DNA of 64,000 nt from a phage. Within the stretch, counting starts at the first letter, position 1. Each line of letters starts with the position of its first letter. Under the pieces are notes generated by a model, which had not been told where the DNA came from, made no database searches, and worked only from the letters and a program-made list of their open reading frames with translations. Shown one piece after another: positions 36,210 through 52,068 of the stretch. Location of the stretch: the sequence record PX880100.1; one strand, 5' to 3'. The position numbers and the translations under genes were made by a program.

Positions 36210-36286
36210 GGGGGTGTAATCGAATTGGCATAGGTACTGGACTTAAAATTCAGGTTTTGTGGGTTCGAATCCCACCACCCCTACCA
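36210..36286 (+). tRNA. tRNA with UAA anticodon (Leu-type anticodon, short variable arm)
   Basis: Acceptor GGGGGTG/CACCCCT, anticodon arm CTGGA-CTTAAAA-TTCAG, T-arm GTGGG-TTCGAAT-CCCAC, encoded CCA; D-arm not cleanly resolved. Confidence 0.5.
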
Positions 36287-36301
36287 AATTAAGGAAATAA
36301 G

Positions 36302-36668: not shown

Positions 36669-36698
36669 CTCCTCCAAATAGAATTTTTAAAAATGTAC

Positions 36699-36728
36699 TT
36701 GCCTTTTGCTTTAAATTTCTGATATAAT
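36699..36728 (+). promoter_or_regulatory. early promoter
   Basis: TTGCCT, 18-bp spacer, TATAAT, then AGTTATATAAATTGATGAAGGAG; approximate. Confidence 0.55.
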
Positions 36729-36758
36729 AGTTATATAAATTGATGAAGGAGTTAACTA

Positions 36759-37034
36759 ATGCAAAATCGTGTTATAGCAACTGGTATTGAAAGTGCAATC
36801 TGTAAATCCTGGGAAGGCTGGGAAGGTGAGATTGAATGGCTTTATTTCTATGATGTAGAACTTCTGCCGGAAGTTAAAGCTAAATGTGTTGAAGCTGGAA
36901 TGGCTCCAGATGCAAAAGCTGATATTGATATTTCAATGTCTGAACTTAAAGGCCGTGTAATTACTGTTAGTGATGAGGGTGAAGAAGTTTTCGAACTTCC
37001 ATTCTCCTTAACTGTCACTCCTAAGTTCGACTAA
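36759..37034 (+). CDS. hypothetical protein (91 aa)
   Basis: Track ORF downstream of promoter. Confidence 0.5.
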   Translation: MQNRVIATGIESAICKSWEGWEGEIEWLYFYDVELLPEVKAKCVEAGMAPDAKADIDISMSELKGRVITVSDEGEEVFELPFSLTVTPKFD

Positions 37035-37070
37035 CTAATACAGCACTGAGCAAGTTCTTTAAAATTTGAC

Positions 37071-37099
37071 TTGCTCAGTGCCTTAAAACTTGGTATAAT
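37071..37099 (+). promoter_or_regulatory. early promoter feeding a tRNA block
   Basis: TTGCTC, 17-bp spacer, TATAAT; followed by a 14-bp inverted-repeat leader hairpin and tRNAs; approximate. Confidence 0.5.
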
Positions 37100-37161
37100 A
37101 GTTATCTAATTTGGAAACATATTTAAAAGTGTTTAAACTAGTATTTGAATACTTTTAAATA

Positions 37162-37267
37162 TGTTGGATTAGTATCGTAGAGGTAGCGAAGCAGACTGTA
37201 AATCTGCCGACTCGGAAGGGTCTCGGGTGGTTCGACTCCATCATCCATCATCCATCATCCAACACCA
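37162..37267 (+). tRNA. tRNA-Tyr-like (anticodon GUA), class II, atypically long; boundaries uncertain
   Basis: Perfect anticodon arm GCAGA-CTGTAAA-TCTGC, D-stem TCG/CGA, T-arm GGTGG-TTCGACT-CCATC; 3' region carries ATCCATC-ATCCATC-ATCCAAC then ACCA; GTTGGAT pairs with the last copy. Confidence 0.5.
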
Positions 37268-37274
37268 AATTTAA

Positions 37275-37351
37275 GTCCTGTTAGACAAACTGGTAAAGTC
37301 ACTACCCTTTCAAGGTAGGATTTGCGGGTTCGATCCCCGCACAGGACGCCA
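37275..37351 (+). tRNA. tRNA-Glu (anticodon UUC)
   Basis: Acceptor GTCCTGT/ACAGGAC, anticodon arm CTACC-CTTTCAA-GGTAG, T-arm GCGGG-TTCGATC-CCCGC, encoded CCA. Confidence 0.8.
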
Positions 37352-37360
37352 ATTTCTGCA

Positions 37361-37436
37361 TTCCTAGAGTGTTACTGGACAGCATGTCGGTCTCCAAAAT
37401 CGTACGGTCTAGGTTCGAGTCCTAGTAGGTTTGCCA
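37361..37436 (+). tRNA. tRNA-Trp-like (anticodon CCA), acceptor pairing unresolved
   Basis: Anticodon arm TCGGT-CTCCAAA-ATCGT and T-arm CTAGG-TTCGAGT-CCTAG with encoded CCA; spacing to neighbouring tRNAs fits, but 5' acceptor strand could not be paired by eye. Confidence 0.4.
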
Positions 37437-37442
37437 AAATTT

Positions 37443-37517
37443 GCACCTTTAGCTGAGATGGATTAGCGCTTGCCTGAAGAGCTTGAGAGGTTCGTTCGAT
37501 ACGAACAGGGTGCACCA
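37443..37517 (+). tRNA. tRNA-Phe-like (anticodon GAA)
   Basis: Acceptor GCACCTT/AGGGTGC, D-arm GCTG..TAGC, T-arm GTTCG-TTCGATA-CGAAC, encoded CCA; anticodon loop CTGAAGA but stem has two U-U mismatches. Confidence 0.55.
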
Positions 37518-37519
37518 AA

Positions 37520-37807
37520 TTGAGGGGGCTGCTGATGCATCCTGAAAACTTCTTTATTTACTGCGCTGATAAGTCGCTGAAACGTAGAATTAACAAAGTC
37601 TATCATTATCGTGCTAGTCAACAGCCTTATGTATATGCTTTTGACGGTGATCACATTCCATTAGAACAATTATCTTGTGATTACATGATATTGAAGAACT
37701 TTGACGAGACAAAGATCTCAAGCGTTCATAATCGACAGAATCCCTTAACGTGGAAATATAAGAAGAAAAAGAAAGGCATCAAATTCTTAAAAAATGTAGT
37801 TGCTTAG
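37520..37807 (+). CDS. hypothetical protein (95 aa)
   Basis: Track ORF starting 3 nt after the tRNA; TTG start. Confidence 0.45.
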   Translation: MRGLLMHPENFFIYCADKSLKRRINKVYHYRASQQPYVYAFDGDHIPLEQLSCDYMILKNFDETKISSVHNRQNPLTWKYKKKKKGIKFLKNVVA

Positions 37808-37828
37808 TTTCCAAAAGTTCTGTATAAT
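37800..37828 (+). promoter_or_regulatory. PN25-type early promoter
   Basis: TTGCTT, 17-bp spacer, TATAAT, then AATTACATAAATTGAACTGGAG; approximate. Confidence 0.55.
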
Positions 37829-37857
37829 AATTACATAAATTGAACTGGAGAAGCAAC

Positions 37858-38082
37858 ATGACAGAACAAGAATTGAATGAACGTAAGCTGGTAATGCTCC
37901 GCTTACTAAACATTTTCTCTGGTATGGATGGGGGTATTGACTTTGTTCATCTACGTTCTTTTGTAGAAGAAGCAGAAGGTGAATCTATCACTAAAATCCT
38001 TAAACATATGGGTTTACTATTAGATGCTGCTGGTGTAGCAACGGAATATAACCTCGAAGATCTACCGGAGCGTATTAAATGA
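37858..38082 (+). CDS. hypothetical protein (75 aa)
   Basis: ATG at 37858 with GGAG RBS; track lists an extended frame from 37840. Confidence 0.5.
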   Translation: MTEQELNERKLVMLRLLNIFSGMDGGIDFVHLRSFVEEAEGESITKILKHMGLLLDAAGVATEYNLEDLPERIK

Positions 38083-38267
38083 AGAAGCCAAAAGCTAAAT
38101 TAGTTAAGTTCGACTGTTGTGACACAGAAATCTTATTCACTAAGTTTGGTGAATTTAAGATGTGTGAATGTGGAACATGTGGTTATGATCATGGTGATGG
38201 ATATTATTGCAGGACTCTTGGACCAGCAAATCTAATCCACTTTTCATGGCCGGAAGATAAAGAATAA
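38079..38267 (+). CDS. small zinc-ribbon-like protein (62 aa)
   Basis: Track ORF; cysteine clusters FDCCDTE and CECGTCGYDHGDGYYC; 4-nt overlap with upstream gene. Confidence 0.5.
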   Translation: MKKPKAKLVKFDCCDTEILFTKFGEFKMCECGTCGYDHGDGYYCRTLGPANLIHFSWPEDKE

Positions 38268-38269
38268 TT

Positions 38270-38344
38270 GCATCCTTGTCCGAGTGGCTTAGGTGACGGT
38301 CTGCAAAATCGTCTAGGTTGGTTCAATTCCAGCAGGGTGCTCCA
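38270..38344 (+). tRNA. tRNA-Cys (anticodon GCA)
   Basis: Acceptor GCATCCT/AGGGTGC, anticodon arm ACGGT-CTGCAAA-ATCGT, T-arm GTTGG-TTCAATT-CCAGC, encoded CCA. Confidence 0.7.
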
Positions 38345-38350
38345 AATTCA

Positions 38351-38433
38351 GGGTCGTTAGCCAAGCGGTTTGGCGGTGGACTGTTAATCCATGTCGAAAG
38401 ACAACGTAGGTTCGAATCCTACACGGCCCGCCA
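38351..38433 (+). tRNA. tRNA-Asn (anticodon GUU) with an enlarged (~13-nt) variable region
   Basis: Acceptor GGGTCGT/ACGGCCC, D-arm GCCA..TGGC, anticodon arm GTGGA-CTGTTAA-TCCAT, T-arm GTAGG-TTCGAAT-CCTAC, encoded CCA. Confidence 0.65.
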
Positions 38434-38535
38434 AATTCTGTGTAGAGTTAAGTAAACCGGTAGCCAACCAGCTATCATTGCTGACATCGAATTCAGCCAC
38501 AGATACCATTTTCATTAATAACTGAGGAAACAAGC

Positions 38536-38721
38536 ATGTCCAAGAATGTAATTGCGCAGCTAGAAGTTCATCGTGATAGCACTATCAACAATATTGAAGT
38601 TGAGAAGAAATACATCGAAGAACTTAAACATGATATACTAGTAAGTCTCAACCGTCTTAATGTACGAAAAGAGTTTCTTAAAGAACTTAATGCAGCTATT
38701 GAAAAACTCAAAGCTGAGTAA
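38536..38721 (+). CDS. hypothetical protein (61 aa)
   Basis: Track ORF with GAGGAAAC RBS. Confidence 0.5.
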   Translation: MSKNVIAQLEVHRDSTINNIEVEKKYIEELKHDILVSLNRLNVRKEFLKELNAAIEKLKAE

Positions 38722-38730
38722 ATGAATTAT

Positions 38731-38807
38731 GCGACCGGGGCTGGCTTGGTAATGGTACTCCCCTGTCACGGGAGGGAATGTGGGTTCAAATCCCATCGGT
38801 CGCGCCA
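38731..38807 (+). tRNA. tRNA-Asp (anticodon GUC)
   Basis: Acceptor GCGACCG/CGGTCGC, anticodon arm CTCCC-CTGTCAC-GGGAG, T-arm GTGGG-TTCAAAT-CCCAT, encoded CCA. Confidence 0.8.
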
Positions 38808-38824
38808 AATAAGGTAGGTTAGCT

Positions 38825-38983
38825 ATGGAACGTAGAGAGTTTACTCCAGAAGAGATAGAGCAGATAAAAGAATCTGCTACGAAAAATGCTAGAATATCTC
38901 TGTCACTAGAAGGTATCATTATTAGTGATGTAAACTTTGAAAAAATCAAAGCCATAGCTGATGAACTGGAAAAAGTAATTTAA
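38825..38983 (+). CDS. hypothetical small protein (52 aa, below track cutoff)
   Basis: ATG at 38825 with AAGGTAGG RBS between two tRNAs; acidic helical peptide. Confidence 0.45.
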   Translation: MERREFTPEEIEQIKESATKNARISLSLEGIIISDVNFEKIKAIADELEKVI

Positions 38984-38984
38984 T

Positions 38985-39060
38985 ACATCCATAGCTCAAT
39001 GGTTAGAGCTACCGCCTCTTAAGCGGAGGGTTCTAGGTTCAAGTCCTAGTGGGTGTACCA
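38985..39060 (+). tRNA. tRNA-Lys (anticodon CUU)
   Basis: Acceptor ACATCCA/TGGGTGT, D-arm GCTC..GAGC, anticodon arm CCGC-CTCTTAA-GCGG, T-arm CTAGG-TTCAAGT-CCTAG, encoded CCA. Confidence 0.65.
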
Positions 39061-39086
39061 AACTAAACTAGCACGAGAAATATACT

Positions 39087-39434
39087 ATGCGTAATGCTAA
39101 AGAAGAGTTGTTACTTGCCTTAAAAAATACTAATTCTGAAGTTAAGTGTATTAAAATAGAATTCGGGTATTATGGGGACAAAAAAGTTTGGGTATTACCT
39201 CTGGGGTATACAGAAGAAGATATTGGGGATTTTCTTAATAACCTAGACTTTGAGTATGATTCTGGTTATGGTGGACAACTACTTTATGGTAATGTATGGT
39301 TTGCCGATGGAACCTGGCTAGAACGTGGGGAATATGATGGAGCTGAGTGGTGGGAATACAAGGCTACTCCAGCAATTCCAGAGGAATGCCGAACAATTAA
39401 TGGTGAAGTAGATAATACTTTAAGGTTAAACTAA
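39087..39434 (+). CDS. hypothetical protein (115 aa)
   Basis: Track ORF. Confidence 0.5.
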   Translation: MRNAKEELLLALKNTNSEVKCIKIEFGYYGDKKVWVLPLGYTEEDIGDFLNNLDFEYDSGYGGQLLYGNVWFADGTWLERGEYDGAEWWEYKATPAIPEECRTINGEVDNTLRLN

Positions 39435-39438
39435 TAAA

Positions 39439-39538
39439 ATTTCAGTGCAGAACACGGAGCTAGCAATTCGGAAGTGCTGACTCATGATAAGCTGCCTATG
39501 TACTTGCAAAGCGGTCGTGTCCAAGACTCGGACTCTTG
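39439..39538 (+). ncRNA. structured ORF-free element closed by a ~10-bp long-range stem
   Basis: TTCAGTGCAG at the 5' end pairs with CTTGCACTGAA at the 3' end, enclosing internal hairpins (GTCC-AAGACTC-GGAC); no ORF. Confidence 0.35.
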
Positions 39539-39556
39539 CACTGAAAACAATCAAAC

Positions 39557-39684
39557 ATTCTAGCGTGGTTGATGGGGAAACCAGCTTGGCTAGGGCAGAA
39601 GCTCGTTCGATTCGAGTGAAAGAATGGTTCTCGTAAGTCCGCACAAGTGATAATAGGTTCGAGTCCTGTCTAGAATGACACTAT
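39557..39684 (+). ncRNA. tRNA-like element of atypical length (~128 nt)
   Basis: ATTCTAG...CTAGAAT acceptor-like pairing, D-arm-like GGTT-GATGGGGA-AACC, two T-arm-like motifs; too long for a canonical tRNA. Confidence 0.3.
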
Positions 39685-39826
39685 AAAGTTTACTTATTAT
39701 GTAGGTTCCGATAGATCGGCGGGTCTATTCTGGCATTTAAGAGAGGTCTCGCAAACTTCTTTGTCAGCCGTGGGGTTGGTAGCCTCCAGGTGGCCTACAC
39801 AATAAGTAAATTTATTAAAAATTCAT

Positions 39827-39855
39827 TTGCTATTTCTCTTAATTATCTGTATAAT
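39827..39855 (+). promoter_or_regulatory. PN25-type early promoter
   Basis: TTGCTA, 17-bp spacer, TATAAT, then ATATTTTATAAAGTGAAGAGAAGG; approximate. Confidence 0.55.
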
Positions 39856-39887
39856 ATATTTTATAAAGTGAAGAGAAGGAAAGCAAA

Positions 39888-40046
39888 ATGAAACACAAGA
39901 TAGCTCAAGTTTTTATGGCATTATGGTGTATGCCAATAGCTATAACAGCATTTAATCTAGATACTTTTACTATAGAAGAAAAATGTATCGGATTAGTTAG
40001 TGGCTTTAGTATGCTTGGCTTATCTTTGTTGTGGTTGAAGAAATAA
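39888..40046 (+). CDS. hypothetical small membrane peptide (52 aa, below track cutoff)
   Basis: ATG at 39888 with GAAGGAAAG RBS after the promoter; hydrophobic sequence; stops 4 nt before tRNA-Pro. Confidence 0.5.
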   Translation: MKHKIAQVFMALWCMPIAITAFNLDTFTIEEKCIGLVSGFSMLGLSLLWLKK

Positions 40047-40050
40047 TATT

Positions 40051-40128
40051 CTCCGTGTAGCTCAGTTTGGCCAGAGCGTTTCGTTTGGGGCGATAGGGTC
40101 GGGGGTTCAAATCCTCCCACGGAGACCA
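40051..40128 (+). tRNA. tRNA-Pro (anticodon UGG)
   Basis: Acceptor CTCCGTG/CACGGAG, D-arm GCTC..GAGC, anticodon loop TTTGGGG (stem with one U-U), T-arm GGGGG-TTCAAAT-CCTCC, encoded CCA. Confidence 0.7.
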
Positions 40129-40134
40129 AACAAT

Positions 40135-40212
40135 TGCGGGTTAGATCTCTGGTAGAGATCGCTAGTCTCATAAGCTAGAAAGAGGTAGGTTCGATTCCTG
40201 CACCCGCTTCCA
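40135..40212 (+). tRNA. tRNA with CAU anticodon (Met-type; T-T mismatch at pair 1-72)
   Basis: Acceptor TGCGGGT/ACCCGCT, D-arm GATC..GATC, anticodon arm CTAGT-CTCATAA-GCTAG, T-arm GTAGG-TTCGATT-CCTGC, encoded CCA. Confidence 0.6.
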
Positions 40213-40232
40213 TTTTAATAGAGGATTTCGAA

Positions 40233-40400
40233 ATGAAAGTATTTCGATTAGTAGTAAGTGACAAACGCTTAGGTAAGAATACATCAAAATCCTTACTTGC
40301 TCATTATGGTAGAAATTGGGATGAAGTAATGGCAGAGTTTAGTACTAATCACTCTTACTTGAAAGTTCACTCTATTAAAGAAGTATACAATGGTTACTAA
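40233..40400 (+). CDS. hypothetical small protein (55 aa, below track cutoff)
   Basis: ATG at 40233 with GAGGA RBS between tRNAs. Confidence 0.45.
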   Translation: MKVFRLVVSDKRLGKNTSKSLLAHYGRNWDEVMAEFSTNHSYLKVHSIKEVYNGY

Positions 40401-40401
40401 T

Positions 40402-40480
40402 AGATCGCTAGCTCAATAGGTTTAGTAGCATCCGACTTTTAATCGGAAGGTTCTGGGTTCAAGTCCCAGGCGATCTACCA
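40402..40480 (+). tRNA. tRNA-Lys (anticodon UUU)
   Basis: Acceptor AGATCGC/GCGATCT, anticodon arm TCCGA-CTTTTAA-TCGGA, T-arm CTGGG-TTCAAGT-CCCAG, encoded CCA. Confidence 0.8.
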
Positions 40481-40484
40481 ATTT

Positions 40485-40558
40485 GCTCGGTTAGTTTAAT
40501 GGGAGAACCCCGTCTTTACATGGCGGTTGAGATAGTTCGATTCTATCACCGGGTACCA
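40485..40558 (+). tRNA. tRNA-Val (anticodon UAC)
   Basis: Acceptor GCTCGGT/ACCGGGT, anticodon arm CCGTC-TTTACAT-GGCGG, T-arm GATAG-TTCGATT-CTATC, encoded CCA. Confidence 0.8.
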
Positions 40559-40577
40559 ATTAACTCAAAATAAGGAA

Positions 40578-40937
40578 TTGCAAATGCAATTATCAAGCAA
40601 GATTCAAGGTTATTTCGGTCATGTGACAATGGAGTTCGCTATCTCTAAAGGTTGGGACTTCGAACAAGATTTAGCTGAGTTCTACAAAGATATTGATCTG
40701 AACGTACCGTACATGGGACTTTCTACTGGTCAGGAGATCACAGAAGCCGATGTATTCAAGGCAAGTCAAGGTGAGGTAACACCTAGTTTTGCCGAGTTCT
40801 GGTTAGGCATTACGTTAAAAGAAGATGCACCAGATAGTGGTGTACTAATGTCTAGTATGCACTCTGGAAGTTCCGATTACCTTTTCATTAGCGATGTTAA
40901 GGAAATACAAGAAGTCTGCAAAAATGTACTTGCTTGA
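40578..40937 (+). CDS. hypothetical protein (119 aa)
   Basis: Track ORF (TTG start; in-frame ATG at 40584) with AAGGAATTG RBS. Confidence 0.5.
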   Translation: MQMQLSSKIQGYFGHVTMEFAISKGWDFEQDLAEFYKDIDLNVPYMGLSTGQEITEADVFKASQGEVTPSFAEFWLGITLKEDAPDSGVLMSSMHSGSSDYLFISDVKEIQEVCKNVLA

Positions 40938-40957
40938 TGCTTAATTTCTTGTTATAA
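40929..40957 (+). promoter_or_regulatory. PN25-type early promoter feeding an ORF-free leader and tRNAs
   Basis: TTGCTT, 17-bp spacer, TATAAT, then ATTTATATAAATTGATGAGGAG; approximate. Confidence 0.55.
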
Positions 40958-41195
40958 TATTTATATAAATTGATGAGGAGAAATCCTCATCATAGTTCAC
41001 TAAGGTATTAGCTCGACCTAGGACTGGCTGCCAAAAAGCACGATCCCTACGATTCGGGAGAAGTTCTAGATTGGTCCACTAGATTCAGCGGCAACTGAAT
41101 AGTGTATTGGGTTTGCGAGATGACGTAGTTCCTTCCGCTCTAAGCGAAGGTGCTGTAGTTACGCCGAGCTAATAGCCTTAGTAAACTAAAGAATT

Positions 41196-41274
41196 TGGGG
41201 AATGGGTCTGCATGGAGTGGACACCTCGCTTGCACCGAGGACATCAGAACGGTTCGATTCCGTTATTCTCCACC
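41196..41274 (+). tRNA. tRNA-Ala (anticodon UGC)
   Basis: Acceptor GGGGAAT/ATTCTCC, D-arm GTCT..GGAC, anticodon arm CCTCG-CTTGCAC-CGAGG, T-arm AACGG-TTCGATT-CCGTT, encoded CCA. Confidence 0.8.
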
Positions 41275-41279
41275 AAATA

Positions 41280-41356
41280 CGCGTGATTGATGGAATTGGC
41301 ATACATACCGTCCTTAGAAGTCGGGTTTTGAGGGTTCGAATCCCTTGTCACGCACC
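41280..41356 (+). tRNA. tRNA with UAG anticodon (Leu-type anticodon, short variable arm)
   Basis: Acceptor GCGTGAT/GTCACGC, anticodon arm CCGTC-CTTAGAA-GTCGG (one mismatch), T-arm GAGGG-TTCGAAT-CCCTT, encoded CCA. Confidence 0.5.
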
Positions 41357-41468
41357 AAATTTGATGGTCAGAGTAAATTAAACCTACTATCTCGGTTGAG
41401 CTGTTTTAATGGGTTCGAATCCCAGCGAGGCGTAACTGCCTGGTGTGATAGAGGCATCATCTTATTAT

Positions 41469-41559
41469 TGGAAGAGCAAATCGAATTGGCGACGAAAACC
41501 GCTTGGAAAGTGGCTGACTGGTAAAACGGCTTGAGAGTTCAAATCTCTCCTCTTCCGCC
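41469..41559 (+). tRNA. tRNA-Ser (anticodon GGA), class II
   Basis: Acceptor GGAAGAG/CTCTTCC, anticodon arm ACCGC-TTGGAAA-GTGGC, long variable arm, T-arm GAGAG-TTCAAAT-CTCTC, encoded CCA. Confidence 0.7.
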
Positions 41560-41571
41560 AAACAATTTATA

Positions 41572-41666
41572 TGGTAGGTCAATCCAATGGCTGGCGTGGG
41601 ACTCCGACTTGAAATCGGTTGATCGTAGTGATACGGTGTAAGGGTTCGATCCCCTTACCTACCTCC
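41572..41666 (+). tRNA. tRNA-Ser (anticodon UGA), class II
   Basis: Acceptor GGTAGGT/ACCTACC, anticodon arm TCCGA-CTTGAAA-TCGGT, long variable arm, T-arm AAGGG-TTCGATC-CCCTT, encoded CCA. Confidence 0.7.
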
Positions 41667-42032
41667 AAATCTTGAAGTATGCCGGAATCGGTAGACGGGG
41701 CTGCCTAAAAGGTTTATAGGGAACATCCACTCCCTGCAACATACCCCATAAAGCGGCTGAGATAAATGGTCTATCTCGTGAAGGTTCAAGTCCTTCTGCT
41801 TCTTGATACATCAATGGCTCAAAGTGTAACGGCGCTATTTGATGCGCTTAGTAAGACTTCCCCGACATGCGTTCGGGAGTAAGCTGCTAAGGCTAGAGTA
41901 GAAGAGTTTCTGAGAGCCGCCACAATTGAAGATTCGTACTCGTCTTGAGCTGCGTGCAATAGGAGATAACTTGATTAGTATTCTAGAACATGCTAATTGA
42001 GGAAGGTTTCGCTAACCCTGCGAGTTTTCAAT

Positions 42033-42109
42033 TGTGGCTATATCATAATTGGTTAATGATCCTGATTGTGAATCAGGCCTATGTGGATTCGAATTCCACT
42101 AGCCACCCC
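42033..42109 (+). tRNA. tRNA-His (anticodon GUG)
   Basis: Acceptor GTGGCTA/TAGCCAC, D-arm TCAT..ATGA, anticodon arm CCTGA-TTGTGAA-TCAGG, T-arm GTGGA-TTCGAAT-TCCAC, encoded CCA. Confidence 0.85.
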
Positions 42110-42135
42110 AAATTAACTTAAATAGGAAATAAAAT

Positions 42136-42330
42136 ATGGCTGATTTCTGCAAACAATGCTCCATTGATATGTGGGGCAGAGATACTGGTGATCTTTCTGG
42201 TTTGATTACAGAAGCTGAAGTTAAAGAAGGCTACGGTGCTGTTGTGATTTGCGAGGGATGCGGAGTTATTCGAGTAGATCATGAAGGCAAACGTTTGGAA
42301 GAATCTGAGCCAACAACAATTTTTCCGTAG
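42136..42330 (+). CDS. small zinc-ribbon-like protein (64 aa)
   Basis: Track ORF; CKQCS...CEGCG cysteine pairs; AGGAAATAAA RBS. Confidence 0.5.
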   Translation: MADFCKQCSIDMWGRDTGDLSGLITEAEVKEGYGAVVICEGCGVIRVDHEGKRLEESEPTTIFP

Positions 42331-42342
42331 AATAAAAATTAT

Positions 42343-42418
42343 TGGGATGTAGATCAATTGGCAGATCGTCGGCCTCTGACTCCGAAGGCTCCACGTTCGA
42401 TCCGTGGCATCCCAGCCA
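42343..42418 (+). tRNA. tRNA-Gln (anticodon CUG)
   Basis: Acceptor TGGGATG/CATCCCA, D-arm GATC..GATC, anticodon loop CTCTGAC, T-arm CCACG-TTCGATC-CGTGG, encoded CCA. Confidence 0.7.
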
Positions 42419-42424
42419 AATAAT

Positions 42425-42500
42425 TGGAGAGTAGTGTAACGGTTAGCACAACGGCCTTTGACTCCGTTAATGGTAGGTTCGATTCCTCCTTCTCCAGCCA
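42425..42500 (+). tRNA. tRNA-Gln (anticodon UUG)
   Basis: Acceptor TGGAGAG/TTCTCCA, D-arm GTGT..GCAC, anticodon loop CTTTGAC, T-arm GTAGG-TTCGATT-CCTCC, encoded CCA. Confidence 0.7.
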
Positions 42501-42508
42501 AATAATAA

Positions 42509-42584
42509 GCGGTTAAGCACACGGGTTGTGTCGCAGGCCTTCCAAGCCTCGCTGAGTAGGGTTCGATTCCCTCTAGCCGCTCCA
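42509..42584 (+). tRNA. tRNA-Gly (anticodon UCC)
   Basis: Acceptor GCGGTTA/TAGCCGC, anticodon arm AGGC-CTTCCAA-GCCT, T-loop TTCGATT, encoded CCA. Confidence 0.65.
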
Positions 42585-42600
42585 ACTTTAAGGGGACATT

Positions 42601-42822
42601 ATGCACGTTTTTGAGTTTCGTAATAAAAGTACCGATAAACGAGTTATTGTTATCGGGGAAACATACCGAGCATACGAACAAACTGACGGCTCTGTTATCC
42701 TGAATGACGAAAAAGGAGGTTTTAGCTTTTATCCCAAAGAAACTTACGAAGAATTTCGTACAAAGTTTCTTCTACCAGACTGGCTAGAAGTAGCGCAGCA
42801 ACGAGAACCCGAAGATGGCTGA
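42601..42822 (+). CDS. hypothetical protein (73 aa)
   Basis: Track ORF with AAGGGGAC RBS. Confidence 0.5.
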   Translation: MHVFEFRNKSTDKRVIVIGETYRAYEQTDGSVILNDEKGGFSFYPKETYEEFRTKFLLPDWLEVAQQREPEDG

Positions 42823-42979
42823 TAACCTAAAAGTCAAGATCGATAAACAAAAGAAACGTGTCGAAGTAGAGATTGGTGAAGAACGTGTAGCCTTCACCTT
42901 TGAATTTCTACAACAAATGGCAATGACAGTTATGACTGATAAGTCTCCTGTTATTGAAAAAGAAATCCCGTTGAAATAA
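42815..42979 (+). CDS. hypothetical small protein (54 aa, below track cutoff)
   Basis: ATG at 42815 overlapping the upstream stop; ends 10 nt before tRNA-Thr. Confidence 0.4.
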   Translation: MADNLKVKIDKQKKRVEVEIGEERVAFTFEFLQQMAMTVMTDKSPVIEKEIPLK

Positions 42980-42988
42980 CGGGCTATC

Positions 42989-43063
42989 GCTCCTAAAGCA
43001 TTGTTGGCGATGCAGTTGCCTTGTAAGCATCTGAACCGGGTTCGATTCCTGGTGGGAGCACCA
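42989..43063 (+). tRNA. tRNA-Thr (anticodon UGU)
   Basis: Acceptor GCTCCTA/TGGGAGC, D-arm GCAT..ATGC, anticodon loop CTTGTAA, T-arm CCGGG-TTCGATT-CCTGG, encoded CCA. Confidence 0.75.
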
Positions 43064-43078
43064 AATTTAAAAATTCAT

Positions 43079-43107
43079 TTGCTTTCTCTCTTATTTCTTG
43101 TTATAAT
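43079..43107 (+). promoter_or_regulatory. PN25-type early promoter
   Basis: TTGCTT, 17-bp spacer, TATAAT, then ATTTATATAAATTAATGAGAGGG; approximate. Confidence 0.55.
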
Positions 43108-43137
43108 ATTTATATAAATTAATGAGAGGGAAGCCAA

Positions 43138-43431
43138 ATGAAACGTTATCTTTCTGTTGTGTTCCAAACTGGTGGTCAGCGCTATACTTACGAATTTCCT
43201 GGCTCTTGGAAAGTCAAAGAAGGTGATCAAGTAGTTGTATTAACACCGCGTGACGGGTATAAGGTAGTAACGGTTAAGCAAGTATTTTCAAAAGACTATG
43301 AACCGTCTAAGTCTATTAACTATAAGATGATTCATGGTGTAGTTCGTCAAGTACCACGAGCGGAAGTCGAAATCAAAGTAGATAAAGATGATAAACTTAA
43401 ATATACCTCTTGCATAGACGAGTTGCTATAA
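43138..43431 (+). CDS. hypothetical protein (97 aa)
   Basis: Track ORF downstream of promoter. Confidence 0.5.
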   Translation: MKRYLSVVFQTGGQRYTYEFPGSWKVKEGDQVVVLTPRDGYKVVTVKQVFSKDYEPSKSINYKMIHGVVRQVPRAEVEIKVDKDDKLKYTSCIDELL

Positions 43432-43637
43432 TGAGGATTACTTTTACAGAAAAGATTATGAGTAATGGTGTTATGATCATTACCGCATGGGACAGTAATC
43501 AGTGGTGTAGTGTTTCAGGTATTAAGCCTGAAGAACAAACACTAGAAAATATCTCAAAGATTAAGCGAAGAATGGCAGAACGTGCACGACTTCCAGGTGC
43601 ACCTAGAAATGGCAAACGTTCTGCTGTGAAATGTTAA
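43431..43637 (+). CDS. hypothetical protein (68 aa)
   Basis: ATG at 43431 overlapping the upstream TAA (TAATG); track lists a longer frame from 43410. Confidence 0.45.
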   Translation: MRITFTEKIMSNGVMIITAWDSNQWCSVSGIKPEEQTLENISKIKRRMAERARLPGAPRNGKRSAVKC

Positions 43638-43638
43638 T

Positions 43639-43715
43639 GCTTCGGTAGCTTAGCGATCTAAAGCACTCGGCTGATAACCGAGAGATCGGGGGTTTAAATC
43701 CCTCCCGGAGTACCA
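43639..43715 (+). tRNA. tRNA-Ile (anticodon GAU)
   Basis: Acceptor GCTTCGG/CCGGAGT, D-arm GCTT..AAGC, anticodon arm CTCGG-CTGATAA-CCGAG, T-arm GGGGG-TTTAAAT-CCCTC, encoded CCA. Confidence 0.8.
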
Positions 43716-43811
43716 AATTTAGGAATTAAGACTATGCGTCCAGGAAAGTTTAGAAAAGCTAATTGGTCTAAAGAGTATAAAGAATACTTACTTAGTCTAG
43801 TAAAACATAAC

Positions 43812-43887
43812 AGTTAGTTGGCAGAGTGGTTATGCACCTCCTTCATACGGAGCGACTACAGTGGTTCAAATCCACTACTAACTACCA
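43812..43887 (+). tRNA. tRNA-Met (anticodon CAU)
   Basis: Acceptor AGTTAGT/ACTAACT, anticodon loop TTCATAC, T-arm AGTGG-TTCAAAT-CCACT, encoded CCA. Confidence 0.7.
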
Positions 43888-47598: not shown

Positions 47599-48297
47599 AT
47601 GAGGATTATTTCTAAGTTCGCCGATGTGTATGATTTGCAGAACAGTTTGTTAGACCCAGATCGTGTTTGGGAACGTAAAACTGAAGAGTTGCTGGTTAAA
47701 GTAACCGATGATGCAGAAAAGAACATTGTGCACACTCGCCAGGTATTTCGTGATGGTTCGCTATCTTTCCGTGGTGATTTCGAATATTTTGTAAACCCAC
47801 TATTTGTTGCAGGTGAAGTTTACTGGTTACACGAGCTATACTGCTGGCATCCAGCATTTAGCTTCAAAACGTTTAATCTCGACACTATGTTCGATAAAAT
47901 GGAAGAGATGGGATTGCATGCTCGTTCTTACTTAATGGATAAGAGTCGCGGAGATGTTCGTGAAACAATGCGTGATTTGCTCGCTGAAGCAAAACCTAAA
48001 GCAGAACGTATCTTATCCGAACTGCGTGTACCGATTGCATATGTGAAAGGTATTAAAAAGAACGATAACGATGATGTTCGTAACTTCGTGATTCAGACTA
48101 ACATTCGTTTCCATCAGTCAGGTATTCCGTGGCAGGAAATTGAAAGTAACTTATACCGTTTACACCAAGTTCTCGAACAGTATATCTTTGGAGTACTAGG
48201 AACTGGTGAGCCTGATATGATTAAAGTATCAGATAAAGACAGGTTAGCAGCGCATGGATTTGATACAAAAACTTCTTTCAGGAATATGGCACGGTAA
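47599..48297 (+). CDS. hypothetical protein (232 aa)
   Basis: Track ORF with AGAGGAT RBS. Confidence 0.5.
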   Translation: MRIISKFADVYDLQNSLLDPDRVWERKTEELLVKVTDDAEKNIVHTRQVFRDGSLSFRGDFEYFVNPLFVAGEVYWLHELYCWHPAFSFKTFNLDTMFDKMEEMGLHARSYLMDKSRGDVRETMRDLLAEAKPKAERILSELRVPIAYVKGIKKNDNDDVRNFVIQTNIRFHQSGIPWQEIESNLYRLHQVLEQYIFGVLGTGEPDMIKVSDKDRLAAHGFDTKTSFRNMAR

Positions 48298-48703
48298 GTG
48301 GTATATCCTGGGAGCAGGTCTAGCGATAGGCATCGGGTTTGGTACTTATCACTTAGTAGATAAAGTGGAGACTCTAGCAGGTGATCTTGCAGTAGCTACT
48401 AAAAAGATCTCTTCTCTAGAGACTTCGCTTAATAAGGTGAAAGCTGAAAGCGAACTTCGTGAGACTAGAATGAATCAGTATTTCACGATGAATAACATTT
48501 CGCAAACAGATCTAGACAAAAAGATTAAGCAGTTAGATAAAGCTCTTAGTCGACAAGATATTATAGCTGCAAAGCCTGGATTGGTAACATTAATTGCTAA
48601 AAAGCAGAGTAAAGAGTTCGAGGAAAGATTAGCGTGTTTAACTGGAAACTTGGAATACTGCTCGCAGCCGCAATCACAATCACAGGCTGTGCAGAAGAAA
48701 TAA
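48254..48703 (+). CDS. candidate i-spanin (TM anchor plus coiled coil)
   Basis: 149 aa; one N-terminal TM helix (WYILGAGLAIGIGFGTY) followed by helical, charged periplasmic-type sequence; lipoprotein gene embedded in its 3' end. Confidence 0.45.
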   Translation: MDLIQKLLSGIWHGKWYILGAGLAIGIGFGTYHLVDKVETLAGDLAVATKKISSLETSLNKVKAESELRETRMNQYFTMNNISQTDLDKKIKQLDKALSRQDIIAAKPGLVTLIAKKQSKEFEERLACLTGNLEYCSQPQSQSQAVQKK

Positions 48704-48987
48704 AACCAGAGCCATCTCATGAGTTAAAGCAAGCTCATGTAGACTGGCCTAAAGGACTTCAACCGTGTAGCTTTGACTTTAAGTTTGAAAAGAAATTAGC
48801 TACAAATGGAGAAGATGGCGTAGTAGTTGTTGTACCATATAAAGATTGGAATATGTTGGCAAAATGCCGTGAGGCAGAATATTCATATATTTCACGACTG
48901 ACTGGTATGGTTTGCTTCTATCGCCAAGATTTACAAGAAAAACGTTGCTTAGTTTACTATCCACCAATTAACAATAGGAAAGATTAA
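48634..48987 (+). CDS. candidate o-spanin (outer-membrane lipoprotein)
   Basis: 117 aa; GTG start with GAGGAAAG RBS inside the preceding gene; signal peptide with lipobox-like LAAAITITGC; stop overlaps dNMP kinase ATG. Confidence 0.45.
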   Translation: MFNWKLGILLAAAITITGCAEEIKPEPSHELKQAHVDWPKGLQPCSFDFKFEKKLATNGEDGVVVVVPYKDWNMLAKCREAEYSYISRLTGMVCFYRQDLQEKRCLVYYPPINNRKD

Positions 48988-50351: not shown

Positions 50352-50360
50352 GTAGTTTTA

Positions 50361-50393
50361 AGCCAGGGTTTAACGACCCTGGCTTTTCTTTTA
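50361..50393 (+). terminator. rho-independent terminator
   Basis: AGCCAGGG...CCCTGGCT hairpin followed by TTTCTTTTAT; approximate. Confidence 0.6.
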
Positions 50394-50454: not shown

Positions 50455-50482
50455 TTGTAATTTTCCTCCAAAATTAGTATAA
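50455..50482 (+). promoter_or_regulatory. promoter for the holin-endolysin pair
   Basis: TTGTAA -35-like, 16-bp spacer, TATAAT; approximate. Confidence 0.45.
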
Positions 50483-50507
50483 TGGTACTGGTTAGAGGAG
50501 GTTACAA

Positions 50508-51164
50508 TTGGAAAAGTTCTTACAATTATTAACGGTACTGCTCCAAGAAGCGAAAGATCCAGCATCGCTTCTTAAACGTCTGCTAACTATCTTAGTTGCT
50601 GTCATTATTTTCTTATTTGTTAGTAATACTAGCGAGGTGATGTCATTCTTAAAGACTTTCTCCACGTCTGCGGTTCTACAGGATGTTCAAACTCAAAGGA
50701 TAGATAACTTTCCTAATGTAGCTAGAGAAAAGAGCATGGTACTCTTTTCTCAAACGGGTGCGGATGCTGTTTTTGTAGTCAAGTATAAACCCGATGCCAT
50801 TAATGATTATTCTAACATTATTGCATGGGAAAGCAATGCGCAATTAGATAGGGCTGACTTGGCCGATAAAGCAGTAAATAAAACGTCTGAGCTATACAGA
50901 CGTCACTTAGAGGGCTTTAACTACGCATCGGATTTAAGTGTAAGAGTAAATAAATATACGGGGTTAAATATACCTGCGTTTAAGAATGTTACTTTTAATT
51001 ACATATACACTTGTCCATATTTCAATCTAAACAATATCTATGCTGGATATATTGGTATTGCTTGGAAAGATAATCCTGTAGATGCAGCCGATTCTGAGAA
51101 ATTCAAGGAATATTTAACAAAGCTCTGTTCCCCACAACAGAGATCTTTAGGTAGATCAATATGA
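50508..51164 (+). CDS. holin-like membrane protein
   Basis: 218 aa; TTG start after GAGGAGG RBS; TM segment LLTILVAVIIFLFV; stop overlaps endolysin ATG (ATGA). Confidence 0.5.
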   Translation: MEKFLQLLTVLLQEAKDPASLLKRLLTILVAVIIFLFVSNTSEVMSFLKTFSTSAVLQDVQTQRIDNFPNVAREKSMVLFSQTGADAVFVVKYKPDAINDYSNIIAWESNAQLDRADLADKAVNKTSELYRRHLEGFNYASDLSVRVNKYTGLNIPAFKNVTFNYIYTCPYFNLNNIYAGYIGIAWKDNPVDAADSEKFKEYLTKLCSPQQRSLGRSI

Positions 51165-51574
51165 GTTTTAAATTTGGTAAAAACAGCGAAAAACAATTAG
51201 CTACCGTTAAGCCAGAGCTACAAAAAGTAGCTCGTAGAGCTTTAGAATTATCTCCATATGATTTCACGATCGTACAGGGTATTCGTACAGTAGCACAAAG
51301 TGCCCAGAATATTGCTAATGGTACCTCATTTTTAAAAGATCCTAGTAAAAGCAAGCATATTACTGGGGATGCGCTTGATTTTGCTCCATATATTAATGGC
51401 AAAATTGATTGGAATGACTTAGAAGCATTTTGGGCGGTTAAAAAGGCTTTTGAACAAGCGGGTAAAGAACTAGGTATTAAACTTCGTTTTGGTGCTGATT
51501 GGAATAACTCCGGAGACTATCACGATGAAATAAAACGTGGTACCTATGACGGCGGTCATGTCGAACTAGTTTAA
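51161..51574 (+). CDS. lys: endolysin, L-alanyl-D-glutamate peptidase (M15 family)
   Basis: 137 aa; zinc-ligand pattern SKHITGDALDF ... GDYHDEIKRGTYDGGHVE typical of M15/VanY-type peptidases. Confidence 0.8.
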   Translation: MSFKFGKNSEKQLATVKPELQKVARRALELSPYDFTIVQGIRTVAQSAQNIANGTSFLKDPSKSKHITGDALDFAPYINGKIDWNDLEAFWAVKKAFEQAGKELGIKLRFGADWNNSGDYHDEIKRGTYDGGHVELV

Positions 51575-51651: not shown

Positions 51652-52068
51652 ATGTTTGCAGAACTATTCACTATGATGCTGCTAGGTATCTGGAAAATAA
51701 GTCTAGTAGTATTCGTTTTAATGATAGTCTTCACTATCATTGCATTAACTACCCGAAATAGCTTATTAATAAAGGTTATTCACGGACTAGAGTATATAAT
51801 TATGGGTTCATTCGGCGTTTGTAAATGCAATTGCCATAGAGATACGAAATATTGTTGGTTATGGATGGAACTAGAGAATCCTATATCCATAGCTTTGGCT
51901 GTTTCATTCGGTATGATTCTTATGGCCCTTACTCTAGCATTAATACCTTTGATGTTAGCTGGGGGAGTTACAGCGTATTTCACCCTTTTCTCCCCGATAC
52001 TTATGTACTCAATTTACCCAGTAACTATGTATCTAGTTAGGAAAAAATTTATACATGCAGTAGATTAA
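51652..52068 (+). CDS. hypothetical multi-pass membrane protein (138 aa)
   Basis: Track ORF; several hydrophobic segments. Confidence 0.5.
   Translation: MFAELFTMMLLGIWKISLVVFVLMIVFTIIALTTRNSLLIKVIHGLEYIIMGSFGVCKCNCHRDTKYCWLWMELENPISIALAVSFGMILMALTLALIPLMLAGGVTAYFTLFSPILMYSIYPVTMYLVRKKFIHAVD

What the first reader, a model, noticed from the sequence alone, without database searches (positions are those of the whole stretch)
48254..48987. Candidate two-component spanin with embedded architecture, 1.5 kb upstream of holin/endolysin
ORF 48254..48703 encodes a single-TM protein followed by long charged helices, the i-spanin pattern. Inside its 3' end, in another frame, a GTG-initiated ORF (48634..48987) with a strong RBS encodes a signal peptide ending in a lipobox-like ITGC, the o-spanin pattern. 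The lipoprotein stop overlaps the dNMP kinase ATG. The holin-like gene and M15 endolysin sit downstream at 50508..51574 with no spanin next to them, so this pair may supply the missing outer-membrane disruption function.
Basis: partly seen in the sequence, partly recalled or inferred. Interest (0 to 1): 0.6.

Follow-up and report, generated by a model that had tools for sequence, protein, structure and literature searches.

The report
T5-type overlapped spanin gene pair

Summary
The window is a T5-like phage (Tequintavirus), 99% identical in DNA to Escherichia phage IME178. Both ORFs exist exactly as described: 48254-48703 (149 aa, one N-terminal membrane helix followed by a long heptad-periodic helix) and 48634-48987 (117 aa, GTG start, signal peptide with lipobox ITGC, Cys19, Ala at +2).

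They match PHROG 739 and PHROG 812 ("Rz-like spanin", E 4e-37 and 5e-30). These are the same two families that hold the experimentally validated T4 spanins PseT.3 and PseT.2. The identical ORFs are annotated i-spanin and o-spanin in phage DaisyDussoix. They belong to the curated "T5 family" of Kongari et al. 2018, which has a 149/117 aa pair with a 70-bp overlap.

Across 27 T5-like genomes both frames are intact and every cysteine is conserved. Substitutions concentrate at the third codon position of whichever frame is coding, and diversity halves in the overlap. The gene order is kept in Klebsiella, Enterobacter and Proteus relatives.

One correction: the architecture is "overlapped", not "embedded". 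A terminator and a promoter-like site separate the pair from the holin/endolysin operon.

No direct experiment on T5 spanins was found, so function rests on homology.

Verdict: real, correctly interpreted, already known; low interest.

The parts
48254..48703 (+). i-spanin gene (149 aa): type II inner-membrane protein with an N-terminal transmembrane helix, periplasmic helices and a C-terminal Cys motif
   Evidence: The ORF is. It matches PHROG 739 'Rz-like spanin' at E 4e-37. The same ORF is annotated i-spanin in MZ501058. It is 96% identical to the AKFV33 i-spanin of SpaninDB. BLASTP against T4 PseT.3 gives E 2e-5.
48302..48358 (+). Transmembrane segment of the i-spanin (residues 17-35, YILGAGLAIGIGFGTYHLV)
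   Evidence: This is the only 19-residue window with mean Kyte-Doolittle hydropathy above 1.4. It lies inside the predicted helix 2-79. Lys6 and Lys15 sit on the N-terminal side and acidic residues on the C-terminal side, which fits an N-in/C-out topology (read directly from the sequence).
48347..48490 (+). Heptad-periodic (coiled-coil-like) helix of the i-spanin periplasmic domain (residues about 32-79)
   Evidence: The heptad score peaks over residues 32-79, and 15 of 500 shuffles reach it. Pepcoil predicts a coiled coil at residues 33-76 in the 96%-identical AKFV33 protein (PMC6139136, supplementary file 4). The AlphaFold2 model has a helix over 2-79.
48635..48661 (+). i-spanin C-terminal CxxGxxxxC motif (Cys128...Cys136), encoded by the same DNA as the o-spanin signal peptide
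   Evidence: Both Cys are conserved in all 27 T5-like sequences. They are also present in the Klebsiella, Enterobacter and Proteus relatives and in the split-gene variants, but absent from T4 PseT.3.
48620..48624 (+). Shine-Dalgarno (GAGGA) for the o-spanin start
   Evidence: Read from the sequence.
48634..48987 (+). o-spanin gene (117 aa precursor, 99 aa mature lipoprotein), GTG start
   Evidence: The ORF is. It matches PHROG 812 'Rz-like spanin' at E 5e-30. It is annotated o-spanin in MZ501058. tblastn finds it in 552 phage records. BLASTP against T4 PseT.2 gives E 7e-7. Third-codon-position bias of substitutions: 49 of 74 variable sites.
48679..48690 (+). Lipobox ITGC (Cys19 is the predicted lipid-modified first residue of the mature protein; Ala follows it at +2)
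   Evidence: Pattern match. G18 and C19 are invariant across T5-like, Klebsiella, Enterobacter and Proteus phages and T4 PseT.2.
48634..48703 (+). 70-nt dual-coding overlap: i-spanin residues 127-149 plus its stop codon, and o-spanin residues 1-23
   Evidence: Nucleotide diversity is 0.047 here against 0.100 and 0.094 in the flanking single-coding parts. Kongari et al. report the same 70-bp overlap for T5, AKFV33, EPS7 and SPC35.
50360..50385 (+). Intrinsic-terminator-like hairpin (11 pairs followed by a T run) after the Clp-like protease gene. It closes the transcription unit that holds the spanin genes.
   Evidence: This is a consensus scan only.
50455..50483 (+). Sigma-70-like promoter (TTGTAA, 17-nt spacer, TATAAT) in front of the holin gene
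   Evidence: This is a consensus scan only, and the number of such sites in the region does not exceed the shuffle expectation.
50508..51164 (+). Holin, class III, T4 gpt type. Functional partner in the lysis pathway.
   Evidence: Pfam Phage_holin_T at E 2.8e-112. PHROG 860 holin.
51161..51574 (+). Endolysin (M15-type peptidase). Functional partner in the lysis pathway.
   Evidence: PHROG 465 endolysin at E 1e-54. Pfam Peptidase_M15_4 at 24.4 bits, just below its 25-bit cut-off. The Enterobacter phage homologue is annotated L-alanyl-D-glutamate peptidase.

Best explanation
The two ORFs are the two-component spanin of a T5-like phage, in the 'overlapped' gene arrangement.

Shown here:
- The first gene encodes a 149-aa protein with one N-terminal membrane helix and a mostly helical, partly heptad-periodic periplasmic domain. 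It ends in a conserved Cys-x7-Cys motif.
- The second gene starts 70 nt before the first ends, in another frame. It encodes a 117-aa precursor with a lipoprotein signal peptide (ITG|C, Ala at +2) and four further conserved cysteines.
- Both are homologues of the T4 spanins PseT.3 and PseT.2.

Inferred from the established spanin model (lambda Rz/Rz1 and T4 PseT.3/PseT.2):
- The i-spanin sits in the inner membrane with its C-terminal domain in the periplasm.
- The o-spanin is lipid-modified at Cys19, cleaved by signal peptidase II, and sorted to the inner leaflet of the outer membrane, because residue +2 is not Asp.
- The two periplasmic domains bind each other and are stabilised by intermolecular disulfide bonds, forming complexes that thread through the peptidoglycan meshwork.
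- Once the T-type holin (50508-51164) has let the M15 endolysin (51161-51574) destroy the peptidoglycan, the freed complexes fuse or disrupt the inner and outer membranes. That completes lysis.

The pair appears to be transcribed with the upstream 232-aa gene, the dNMP kinase gene and the Clp-like protease gene. That would make it a separate unit from the holin/endolysin operon, as the T4 spanin genes also lie away from t and e.
For: - PHROG 739 and 812 matches at E 4e-37 and 5e-30. T4 PseT.3 and PseT.2 hit the same two PHROGs at E 6e-37 and 3e-41.
- Pairwise BLASTP against T4 PseT.3 and PseT.2 gives E 2e-5 and 7e-7.
- Cys87 and Cys98 of PseT.2 are reported as essential for lysis in PMC6139136. 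They align with Cys94 and Cys105 here and are invariant in the alignment.
- The same ORFs are annotated i-spanin and o-spanin, or Rz-like spanin, in many T5-like records.
- They are curated as the overlapped 'T5 family' with a 70-bp overlap, and the i-spanin is 96% identical to the AKFV33 entry.
- Transmembrane segment, lipobox and +2 Ala; heptad periodicity and helices.
- Both frames are under purifying selection, and all cysteines and the o-spanin start codon are conserved in 27 genomes.
- The pair and its synteny with dNMP kinase, protease, holin and endolysin are kept in Klebsiella, Enterobacter and Proteus Demerecviridae at 24-47% o-spanin identity, always with a lipobox and the i-spanin Cys motif.
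- It is the only credible lipoprotein gene in the window.
Against: - No experiment on the T5-family pair itself was found. Lipid modification, outer-membrane sorting, complex formation and a requirement for lysis are all inferred.
- There are no Pfam or NCBIfam hits for either protein, so support comes from PHROGs, literature curation and pairwise similarity.
- The single-sequence AlphaFold2 model of the o-spanin has low confidence (pLDDT 49).
- The genes lie in an operon of nucleotide-metabolism and protease genes, not in a lysis cassette. This is also true of T4.
Confidence: 0.93

Rival explanations
1. The lipoprotein is not a lysis protein but a receptor-blocking or superinfection-exclusion lipoprotein, like T5 Llp or the Cor proteins. 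On this reading the upstream membrane protein is unrelated to it.
For: T5-like phages are known to encode a small lipoprotein, Llp, that blocks FhuA (mentioned in PMC4342426). The pair lies in an operon of non-lysis genes rather than next to the holin.
Against: - The only PHROG matched at E below 0.01 is the spanin family 812, which also contains T4 PseT.2.
- The essential C-terminal Cys pair of PseT.2 is conserved.
- The lipoprotein gene is always preceded by, and usually overlaps, a gene for a type II membrane protein of the PseT.3 family, even in distant Demerecviridae.
- From general knowledge, Llp is encoded next to the receptor-binding protein gene, not at this position.
- Shivani lacks llp but keeps this pair.
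Confidence: 0.03
2. The out-of-frame ORF 48634-48987 is a chance open frame or an annotation artefact. Only the 149-aa protein, or neither, is made.
For: Many GenBank records do not annotate it or annotate only 'hypothetical protein'. It uses a GTG start here.
Against: - It is open in 27 of 27 T5-like sequences, and its start codon toggles only between ATG (20) and GTG (7).
- Beyond the overlap, 49 of 74 variable sites fall at its third codon positions. No other ORF covers that 284-nt stretch, which would otherwise be a non-coding gap before the dNMP kinase gene.
- The protein is recognisable at 24-47% identity in Klebsiella, Enterobacter and Proteus phages and in T4, with an invariant Gly-Cys lipobox.
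- Kongari et al. explain the missing annotations by gene-caller bias against overlapping genes.
Confidence: 0.01
3. The pair forms an envelope-spanning complex whose main role lies outside terminal lysis, for example an early envelope function tied to its co-transcription with early metabolic genes. On this reading, outer-membrane disruption in T5 is achieved in some other way.
For: A terminator-like hairpin and a promoter-like site separate the pair from the holin/endolysin genes. No direct test in T5 was found.
Against: - The homologous T4 genes are likewise distant from t and e, yet they complement the lambda spanin defect (PMC6139136).
- No other spanin candidate, whether a lipoprotein or a unimolecular spanin, exists in the window.
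- In lambda the spanins accumulate before the holin triggers and stay inert until the peptidoglycan is degraded (established spanin model). Separate or earlier transcription is therefore compatible with a role in lysis.
Confidence: 0.03

Closest known systems
SpaninDB 'T5 family' of two-component spanins (T5, EPS7, Stitch, SPC35, AKFV33, FFH1, DT57C; Kongari et al. 2018, PMC6139136)
   Same: The proteins have the same lengths (149 and 117 aa), the same 70-nt overlap and the same ITGC lipobox. The i-spanin is 96% identical to the AKFV33 entry. The flanking genes are the same. The window's pair is simply another member.
   Different: Only point substitutions. The o-spanin start is GTG here and in 6 of the other 26 compared relatives, and ATG in the remaining 20.
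T4 PseT.3 / PseT.2 (i-spanin / o-spanin; experimentally shown to complement lambda Rz/Rz1)
   Same: - Both pairs fall in the same PHROG families, 739 and 812, with pairwise E-values of 2e-5 and 7e-7.
- The i-spanin has the same plan: a transmembrane helix, then helix 1 (coiled coil), then helix 2 and a conserved KPGL turn.
- The o-spanin shares the CYYRQ.L.E..C end, which carries the two cysteines essential in T4.
- In both phages the spanin genes lie away from a T-type holin and its endolysin.
   Different: - T4's genes count as 'separated' (a 4-nt overlap), whereas these overlap by 70 nt.
- The T5-type i-spanin has a roughly 25-residue C-terminal extension with a conserved CxxGxxxxC motif; PseT.3 has no periplasmic cysteine.
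- The T5-type o-spanin has two extra conserved cysteines (Cys45, Cys78) and a C-terminal tail.
- Identity is only about 27-28%.
Lambda Rz / Rz1
   Same: The functional class and the general logic are shared: an inner-membrane type II protein with periplasmic coiled coils, an outer-membrane lipoprotein encoded in another frame of the same DNA, and periplasmic cysteines.
   Different: - Rz1 lies wholly inside Rz (embedded), whereas this o-spanin gene runs 284 nt beyond the i-spanin stop.
- No detectable sequence similarity: neither protein has a significant Pfam hit to any family.
- The o-spanin here is 99 aa when mature and has predicted strand-helix-strand elements, unlike the 40-aa proline-rich unstructured Rz1 (at low confidence; PMC6139136).
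Shivani / phiR201-type split T5-family spanins
   Same: The proteins are the same. The o-spanin is nearly identical apart from its signal-peptide N-terminus.
   Different: In those phages, and in loci L026-L028 here, a roughly 700-bp insert carrying a 232-aa ORF separates the two genes. Kongari et al. identify that ORF as a GIY-YIG homing endonuclease. The insert removes the overlap and replaces the i-spanin tail after the Cys motif.

Membership tests
Two-component spanin (functional class) | i-spanin: small type II inner-membrane protein with a single N-terminal transmembrane domain | tested here: met
   There is one hydrophobic segment, residues 17-35, inside the predicted helix 2-79. Lys residues flank it on the N-terminal side and acidic residues follow it.
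Two-component spanin (functional class) | i-spanin periplasmic domain is largely alpha-helical with coiled-coil propensity | tested here: met
   Heptad periodicity over residues 32-79, reached by 15 of 500 shuffles. AlphaFold2 helices at 2-79, 84-99, 109-116 and 120-129, pLDDT 64. Pepcoil predicts a coiled coil at 33-76 in the 96%-identical AKFV33 protein.
Two-component spanin (functional class) | o-spanin: signal peptidase II signal with a lipobox Cys, and a +2 residue compatible with outer-membrane sorting | tested here: met
   LLAAAITITG|C fits the lipoprotein pattern, and +2 is Ala. The Gly-Cys is invariant in all relatives. Actual lipid modification and sorting cannot be tested with these tools.
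Two-component spanin (functional class) | The i-spanin gene immediately precedes, overlaps or contains the o-spanin gene | tested here: met
   70-nt overlap in another frame. The same order is found in all relatives examined.
Two-component spanin (functional class) | At least one periplasmic cysteine available for intermolecular disulfide bonds | tested here: met
   The i-spanin has Cys128 and Cys136. The mature o-spanin has Cys45, Cys78, Cys94 and Cys105. All are conserved in 27 of 27 T5-like sequences.
Two-component spanin (functional class) | Required for outer-membrane disruption; complements lambda Rz(am)Rz1(am) | not testable with these tools
   This needs wet-lab work. It has been reported for the T4 homologues (PMC6139136). 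No report for T5-family proteins was found.
SpaninDB T5 family (Kongari et al. 2018; at least 40% identity over at least 40% of the length) | Sequence identity to family members above the clustering threshold | tested here: met
   The i-spanin is 143/149 identical to the AKFV33 entry. The o-spanin is 91-97% identical to 28 T5-like loci.
SpaninDB T5 family (Kongari et al. 2018; at least 40% identity over at least 40% of the length) | Overlapped architecture with a 70-bp overlap (the majority form of the family) | tested here: met
   The overlap is 48634-48703, 70 nt. Supplementary file 5 lists 70 for AKFV33, EPS7 and SPC35.
T4 PseT.3 / PseT.2 family (PHROG 739 / 812) | Significant match to the same profile families as the T4 proteins | tested here: met
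   Window proteins: E 4e-37 and 5e-30. T4 proteins: E 6e-37 and 3e-41.
T4 PseT.3 / PseT.2 family (PHROG 739 / 812) | Two C-terminal cysteines of the o-spanin (PseT.2 C87 and C98, essential in T4) | tested here: met
   They align with Cys94 and Cys105, in invariant columns.
Lambda Rz/Rz1-type embedded spanin | o-spanin reading frame wholly contained within the i-spanin gene | tested here: not met
   The o-spanin gene ends at 48987, 284 nt beyond the i-spanin stop at 48703. The definition of the classes is in PMC6139136.
Lambda Rz/Rz1-type embedded spanin | Sequence similarity to Rz or Rz1 | tested here: not met
   Neither protein has a significant Pfam hit.
Receptor-blocking lipoproteins (T5 Llp / Cor) | Sequence match to such a family | tested here: not met
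   The PHROG scan at E up to 0.01 returns only spanin family 812 for the lipoprotein. No direct comparison with an Llp sequence was made.

The most novel reading that the evidence does not exclude
The T5-family spanin may be a mechanistic variant of the T4 type. It has gained a conserved CxxGxxxxC module at the i-spanin C-terminus and two extra o-spanin cysteines. The i-spanin module is encoded by the very nucleotides that also encode the o-spanin signal peptide. Covalent linkage could therefore differ from T4, for instance through i-spanin homodimers or i-o heterodisulfides instead of o-spanin dimers only. Dual coding could also lock the Cys motif and the signal peptide together in evolution. 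In addition, the pair may be expressed earlier than, and independently of, the holin/endolysin operon. None of this has been tested experimentally in T5.
Probability: 0.3. Interest if true: 0.25.

Novelty: already known. Interest (0 to 1): 0.08.

Why it matters
It matters little beyond correct annotation. The pair supplies the third step of Gram-negative lysis, outer-membrane disruption, for a T5-like phage, and it explains why no spanin sits beside the holin and endolysin genes.

Two practical points follow. Many deposited T5-like genomes still miss, truncate or mislabel the o-spanin gene, so the coordinates and features given here can be used to repair annotation. And the T5 family has never been tested directly, so the extra conserved cysteines offer a small, well-defined experimental question within an established framework.

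Tried and rejected
- Pfam and NCBIfam scans of both proteins gave only sub-threshold noise: CNOT1 and MctB in Pfam, and FtsL-like at 20.9 bits against a cut-off of 50 in NCBIfam.
- A sequence search of the Protein Data Bank found no relative with a solved structure for either protein.
- Single-sequence AlphaFold2 gave a moderately confident helical model for the i-spanin (pLDDT 64). The o-spanin model was low confidence (pLDDT 49), so no fold search was run on either.
- Deeper alignments for structure prediction were not possible. Locus-derived sequences are not accepted by that tool, and the expensive protein-database searches were not justified for a question already settled.
- The 'embedded' label was considered and rejected, because the o-spanin gene runs past the i-spanin stop.
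- The idea of a chance ORF was rejected on the codon-position pattern.
- An Llp/Cor-type exclusion lipoprotein was rejected because the only profile match is to the spanin family and the pairing with the i-spanin gene is conserved.
- A window-wide lipobox scan looked for a second spanin candidate next to the endolysin and found none.
- The first attempt to fetch the T4 pseT region used the wrong coordinates; this was corrected.
Full report
**What the window is.** A 1.2-kb query around the finding matches 449 phage records. The best is Escherichia phage IME178 at 99.1% identity, and almost all hits are T5-like Salmonella and Escherichia phages. The best fully annotated relative, Escherichia phage DaisyDussoix (MZ501058; Demerecviridae, Tequintavirus), has ORFs of the same lengths in the same order: hypothetical protein, i-spanin, o-spanin, dNMP kinase, Clp-like protease, holin, endolysin. 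A cluster of 24 tRNA genes at 33839-43887 fits a T5-like genome (one search lists the large ORFs; the tRNAs).

**Checking the observation.** Both ORFs are present at the stated coordinates.
- The 117-aa ORF begins with GTG at 48634, which is 380 nt into the 149-aa ORF and so in another frame. The two share 70 nt.
- GAGGA at 48620-48624 precedes the GTG.
- The TAA stop of the second ORF shares its last A with the ATG of the dNMP kinase gene.
- The 149-aa protein has a single hydrophobic segment, residues 17-35.
- The 117-aa protein matches the bacterial lipoprotein signal pattern (LLAAAITITG|C), with Cys19 followed by Ala.
- Heptad periodicity is strongest over residues 32-79 of the first protein; 15 of 500 shuffles reach the observed score.
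- A single-sequence AlphaFold2 model puts helices at 2-79, 84-99, 109-116 and 120-129 (pLDDT 64).
- The o-spanin model is poor (pLDDT 49) but shows a strand-helix-strand-strand pattern in the C-terminal half.
- The downstream holin is a T4 gpt-type class III holin (Pfam Phage_holin_T, E 3e-112).
- The endolysin matches PHROG 465 (E 1e-54), and Pfam Peptidase_M15_4 just below its cut-off.
- A scan of every ORF in the window for a lipoprotein signal finds no other candidate with a ribosome-binding site. The statement that no spanin lies next to the endolysin therefore holds.

**Is the out-of-frame ORF real?** I extracted the homologous 734 nt from 26 T5-like loci (IMG/VR contigs and DaisyDussoix). 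With the window this gave 27 distinct sequences that align without gaps.
- Both frames are open in all 27.
- The o-spanin start is ATG in 20 and GTG in 7.
- All seven cysteines are invariant: i-spanin 128 and 136; o-spanin 19, 45, 78, 94 and 105.
- Where only the i-spanin is encoded, 73 of 122 variable sites are third positions of the i frame.
- Where only the o-spanin is encoded, 49 of 74 variable sites are third positions of the o frame.
- In the 70-nt overlap, nucleotide diversity falls to 0.047, against 0.100 and 0.094 in the flanking parts.

This is the signature of two translated, selected frames.

**What it is.** The two proteins match PHROG 739 and PHROG 812, both named 'Rz-like spanin', at E 4e-37 and 5e-30. 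The T4 proteins PseT.3 and PseT.2 hit the same two families at E 6e-37 and 3e-41. Direct BLASTP gives E 2e-5 for the i-spanins and 7e-7 for the o-spanins.

Kongari et al. 2018 (PMC6139136) report that pseT.3 and pseT.2 complement a lambda Rz(am)Rz1(am) lysogen, and that Cys87 and Cys98 of PseT.2 are both essential. Those cysteines align with Cys94 and Cys105 of the window's o-spanin, in invariant columns of an alignment that also includes Klebsiella, Enterobacter and Proteus phage homologues.

The same paper curates a 'T5 family' of two-component spanins: T5, EPS7, Stitch, SPC35, AKFV33, FFH1 and DT57C are overlapped, while Shivani and phiR201 are separated. It states that the T5 genes overlap by 70 bp. 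Its supplementary tables list 149-aa and 117-aa proteins and a Pepcoil coiled coil at residues 33-76 of the i-spanin. The window's i-spanin is 143/149 identical to the AKFV33 entry. The finding is therefore a known, catalogued gene pair.

**Correction of the label.** In the nomenclature of that field, 'embedded' means the o-spanin gene lies wholly within the i-spanin gene (lambda). 'Overlapped' means it extends beyond the i-spanin frame (P2). 'Separated' means the genes do not overlap (T4). Here the o-spanin gene runs 284 nt past the i-spanin stop, so the pair is overlapped.

**Wider conservation.** tblastn with the o-spanin finds 552 phage records, 109 of them at under 60% identity. I examined three distant Demerecviridae:
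- Klebsiella phage vB_Kpn_K7_rec4: 47% o-spanin identity, lipobox ASGC, 88-nt overlap.
- Enterobacter phage KKP_3711: 41% identity, lipobox LVGC, 43-nt overlap.
- Proteus phage M4H10_20: 24% identity, lipobox LVGC, 34-nt overlap.

All three keep the order unknown ORF, i-spanin, o-spanin, dNMP kinase, protease, holin, endolysin. All keep a CxxGxxxxC motif at the i-spanin C-terminus and four periplasmic cysteines in the o-spanin. T4 PseT.3 lacks the motif and PseT.2 has only the last two cysteines.

In the window, the motif (48635-48661) is encoded by the same nucleotides as the o-spanin signal peptide.

Three IMG/VR loci (L026-L028) have the pair split by about 700 bp carrying a 232-aa ORF. There the i-spanin tail changes after the Cys motif and the first residues of the o-spanin signal peptide change. 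This is the Shivani/phiR201 arrangement that Kongari et al. attribute to a GIY-YIG homing endonuclease.

**How it most likely works.**

*Shown:* the anatomy, the homology and the selection on both frames.

*Inferred from the lambda and T4 spanin model:*
- The i-spanin is anchored N-in/C-out in the inner membrane.
- The o-spanin is lipid-modified at Cys19, cleaved and sorted to the outer membrane (+2 Ala).
- The periplasmic domains associate and are disulfide-stabilised, forming bridges through the peptidoglycan mesh.
- When the T-type holin releases the M15 endolysin and the peptidoglycan is degraded, the complexes are free to act. They fuse or disrupt the two membranes, which completes lysis.

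*Transcription:* a strong terminator-like hairpin at 50360-50385 follows the protease gene, and a promoter-like site at 50455-50483 precedes the holin gene. This suggests that the spanin genes are transcribed apart from the holin/endolysin operon (consensus scans only). A separate T5 holin/endolysin operon is the subject of Chernyshov et al. 2024, which I saw only as a citation in PMC12894885. Separate location is also the T4 situation.

**Rivals.**
- A chance ORF is excluded by the substitution pattern.
- An Llp/Cor-like exclusion lipoprotein is unlikely. The only profile match is to the spanin family, the gene is always coupled to a PseT.3-type gene, and Shivani lacks llp yet keeps this pair.
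- A non-lysis role for an envelope-spanning complex cannot be formally excluded, because I found no experiment on T5-family spanins. Nothing positive supports it.

**Verdict.** The feature is already known and curated. Interest is low. The only mildly open question is whether the extra conserved cysteines of the T5 family change the disulfide chemistry relative to T4.

Noticed in passing
window 51652-52068 (+): A 138-aa protein with several hydrophobic segments (by eye from the translation) is encoded directly after the endolysin gene. It matches only PHROG 5944, of unknown function (E 2e-82), and has no NCBIfam hit. A gene of similar size sits in the same position in DaisyDussoix and in the Klebsiella and Enterobacter relatives. 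Its position would suit a lysis regulator such as an antiholin, but nothing tested here supports that.
   Followed up: partly
window 47599-48297 (+): The 232-aa ORF upstream of the i-spanin overlaps the i-spanin start by 44 nt. It matches only PHROG 4243, of unknown function. Homologues precede the spanin pair in the Klebsiella, Enterobacter and Proteus phages. Public records call it variously 'putative DNA polymerase III subunit epsilon', 'putative terminase' or hypothetical, and these names are inconsistent and unsupported here. In locus L004 the ORF that ends at the i-spanin start is instead a different 165-aa ORF, and the first 14 residues of the i-spanin differ.
   Followed up: partly
L026, L027, L028: about 2815-3513: In three T5-like IMG/VR contigs a roughly 700-bp insert carrying a 232-aa Cys-rich ORF splits the spanin pair. 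This converts the overlapped arrangement to a separated one and rewrites the i-spanin tail and the first residues of the o-spanin signal peptide. It is the Shivani/phiR201 arrangement described by Kongari et al. as a GIY-YIG homing endonuclease insertion.
   Followed up: partly
L032 3501-3830 (Klebsiella phage vB_Kpn_K7_rec4) and other GenBank records: The o-spanin gene is often missing, truncated or mislabelled in deposited T5-like genomes. PQ569730 annotates only a 51-aa 'Rz-like spanin' at 3675-3830, which lacks the signal peptide. MT074464 (bobsandoy) shows 'i-spanin' under the o-spanin match. Several records have no feature or only 'hypothetical protein' there.
   Followed up: partly
window 50360-50385 and 50455-50483 (+): An 11-bp G+C-rich hairpin with a T run follows the Clp-like protease gene, and a TTGTAA-17-TATAAT site lies about 25 nt before the holin start. 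Together they suggest separate transcription units for the spanins and for holin/endolysin.
   Followed up: no
window 33839-43887 (+): A cluster of 24 tRNA genes on the + strand, interspersed with small ORFs.
   Followed up: no
window 50508 (+): The holin ORF starts with TTG behind a strong GAGGAGG Shine-Dalgarno, and its stop region overlaps the endolysin ATG by 4 nt (51161-51164). DaisyDussoix annotates a holin of the same 657-nt length.
   Followed up: no
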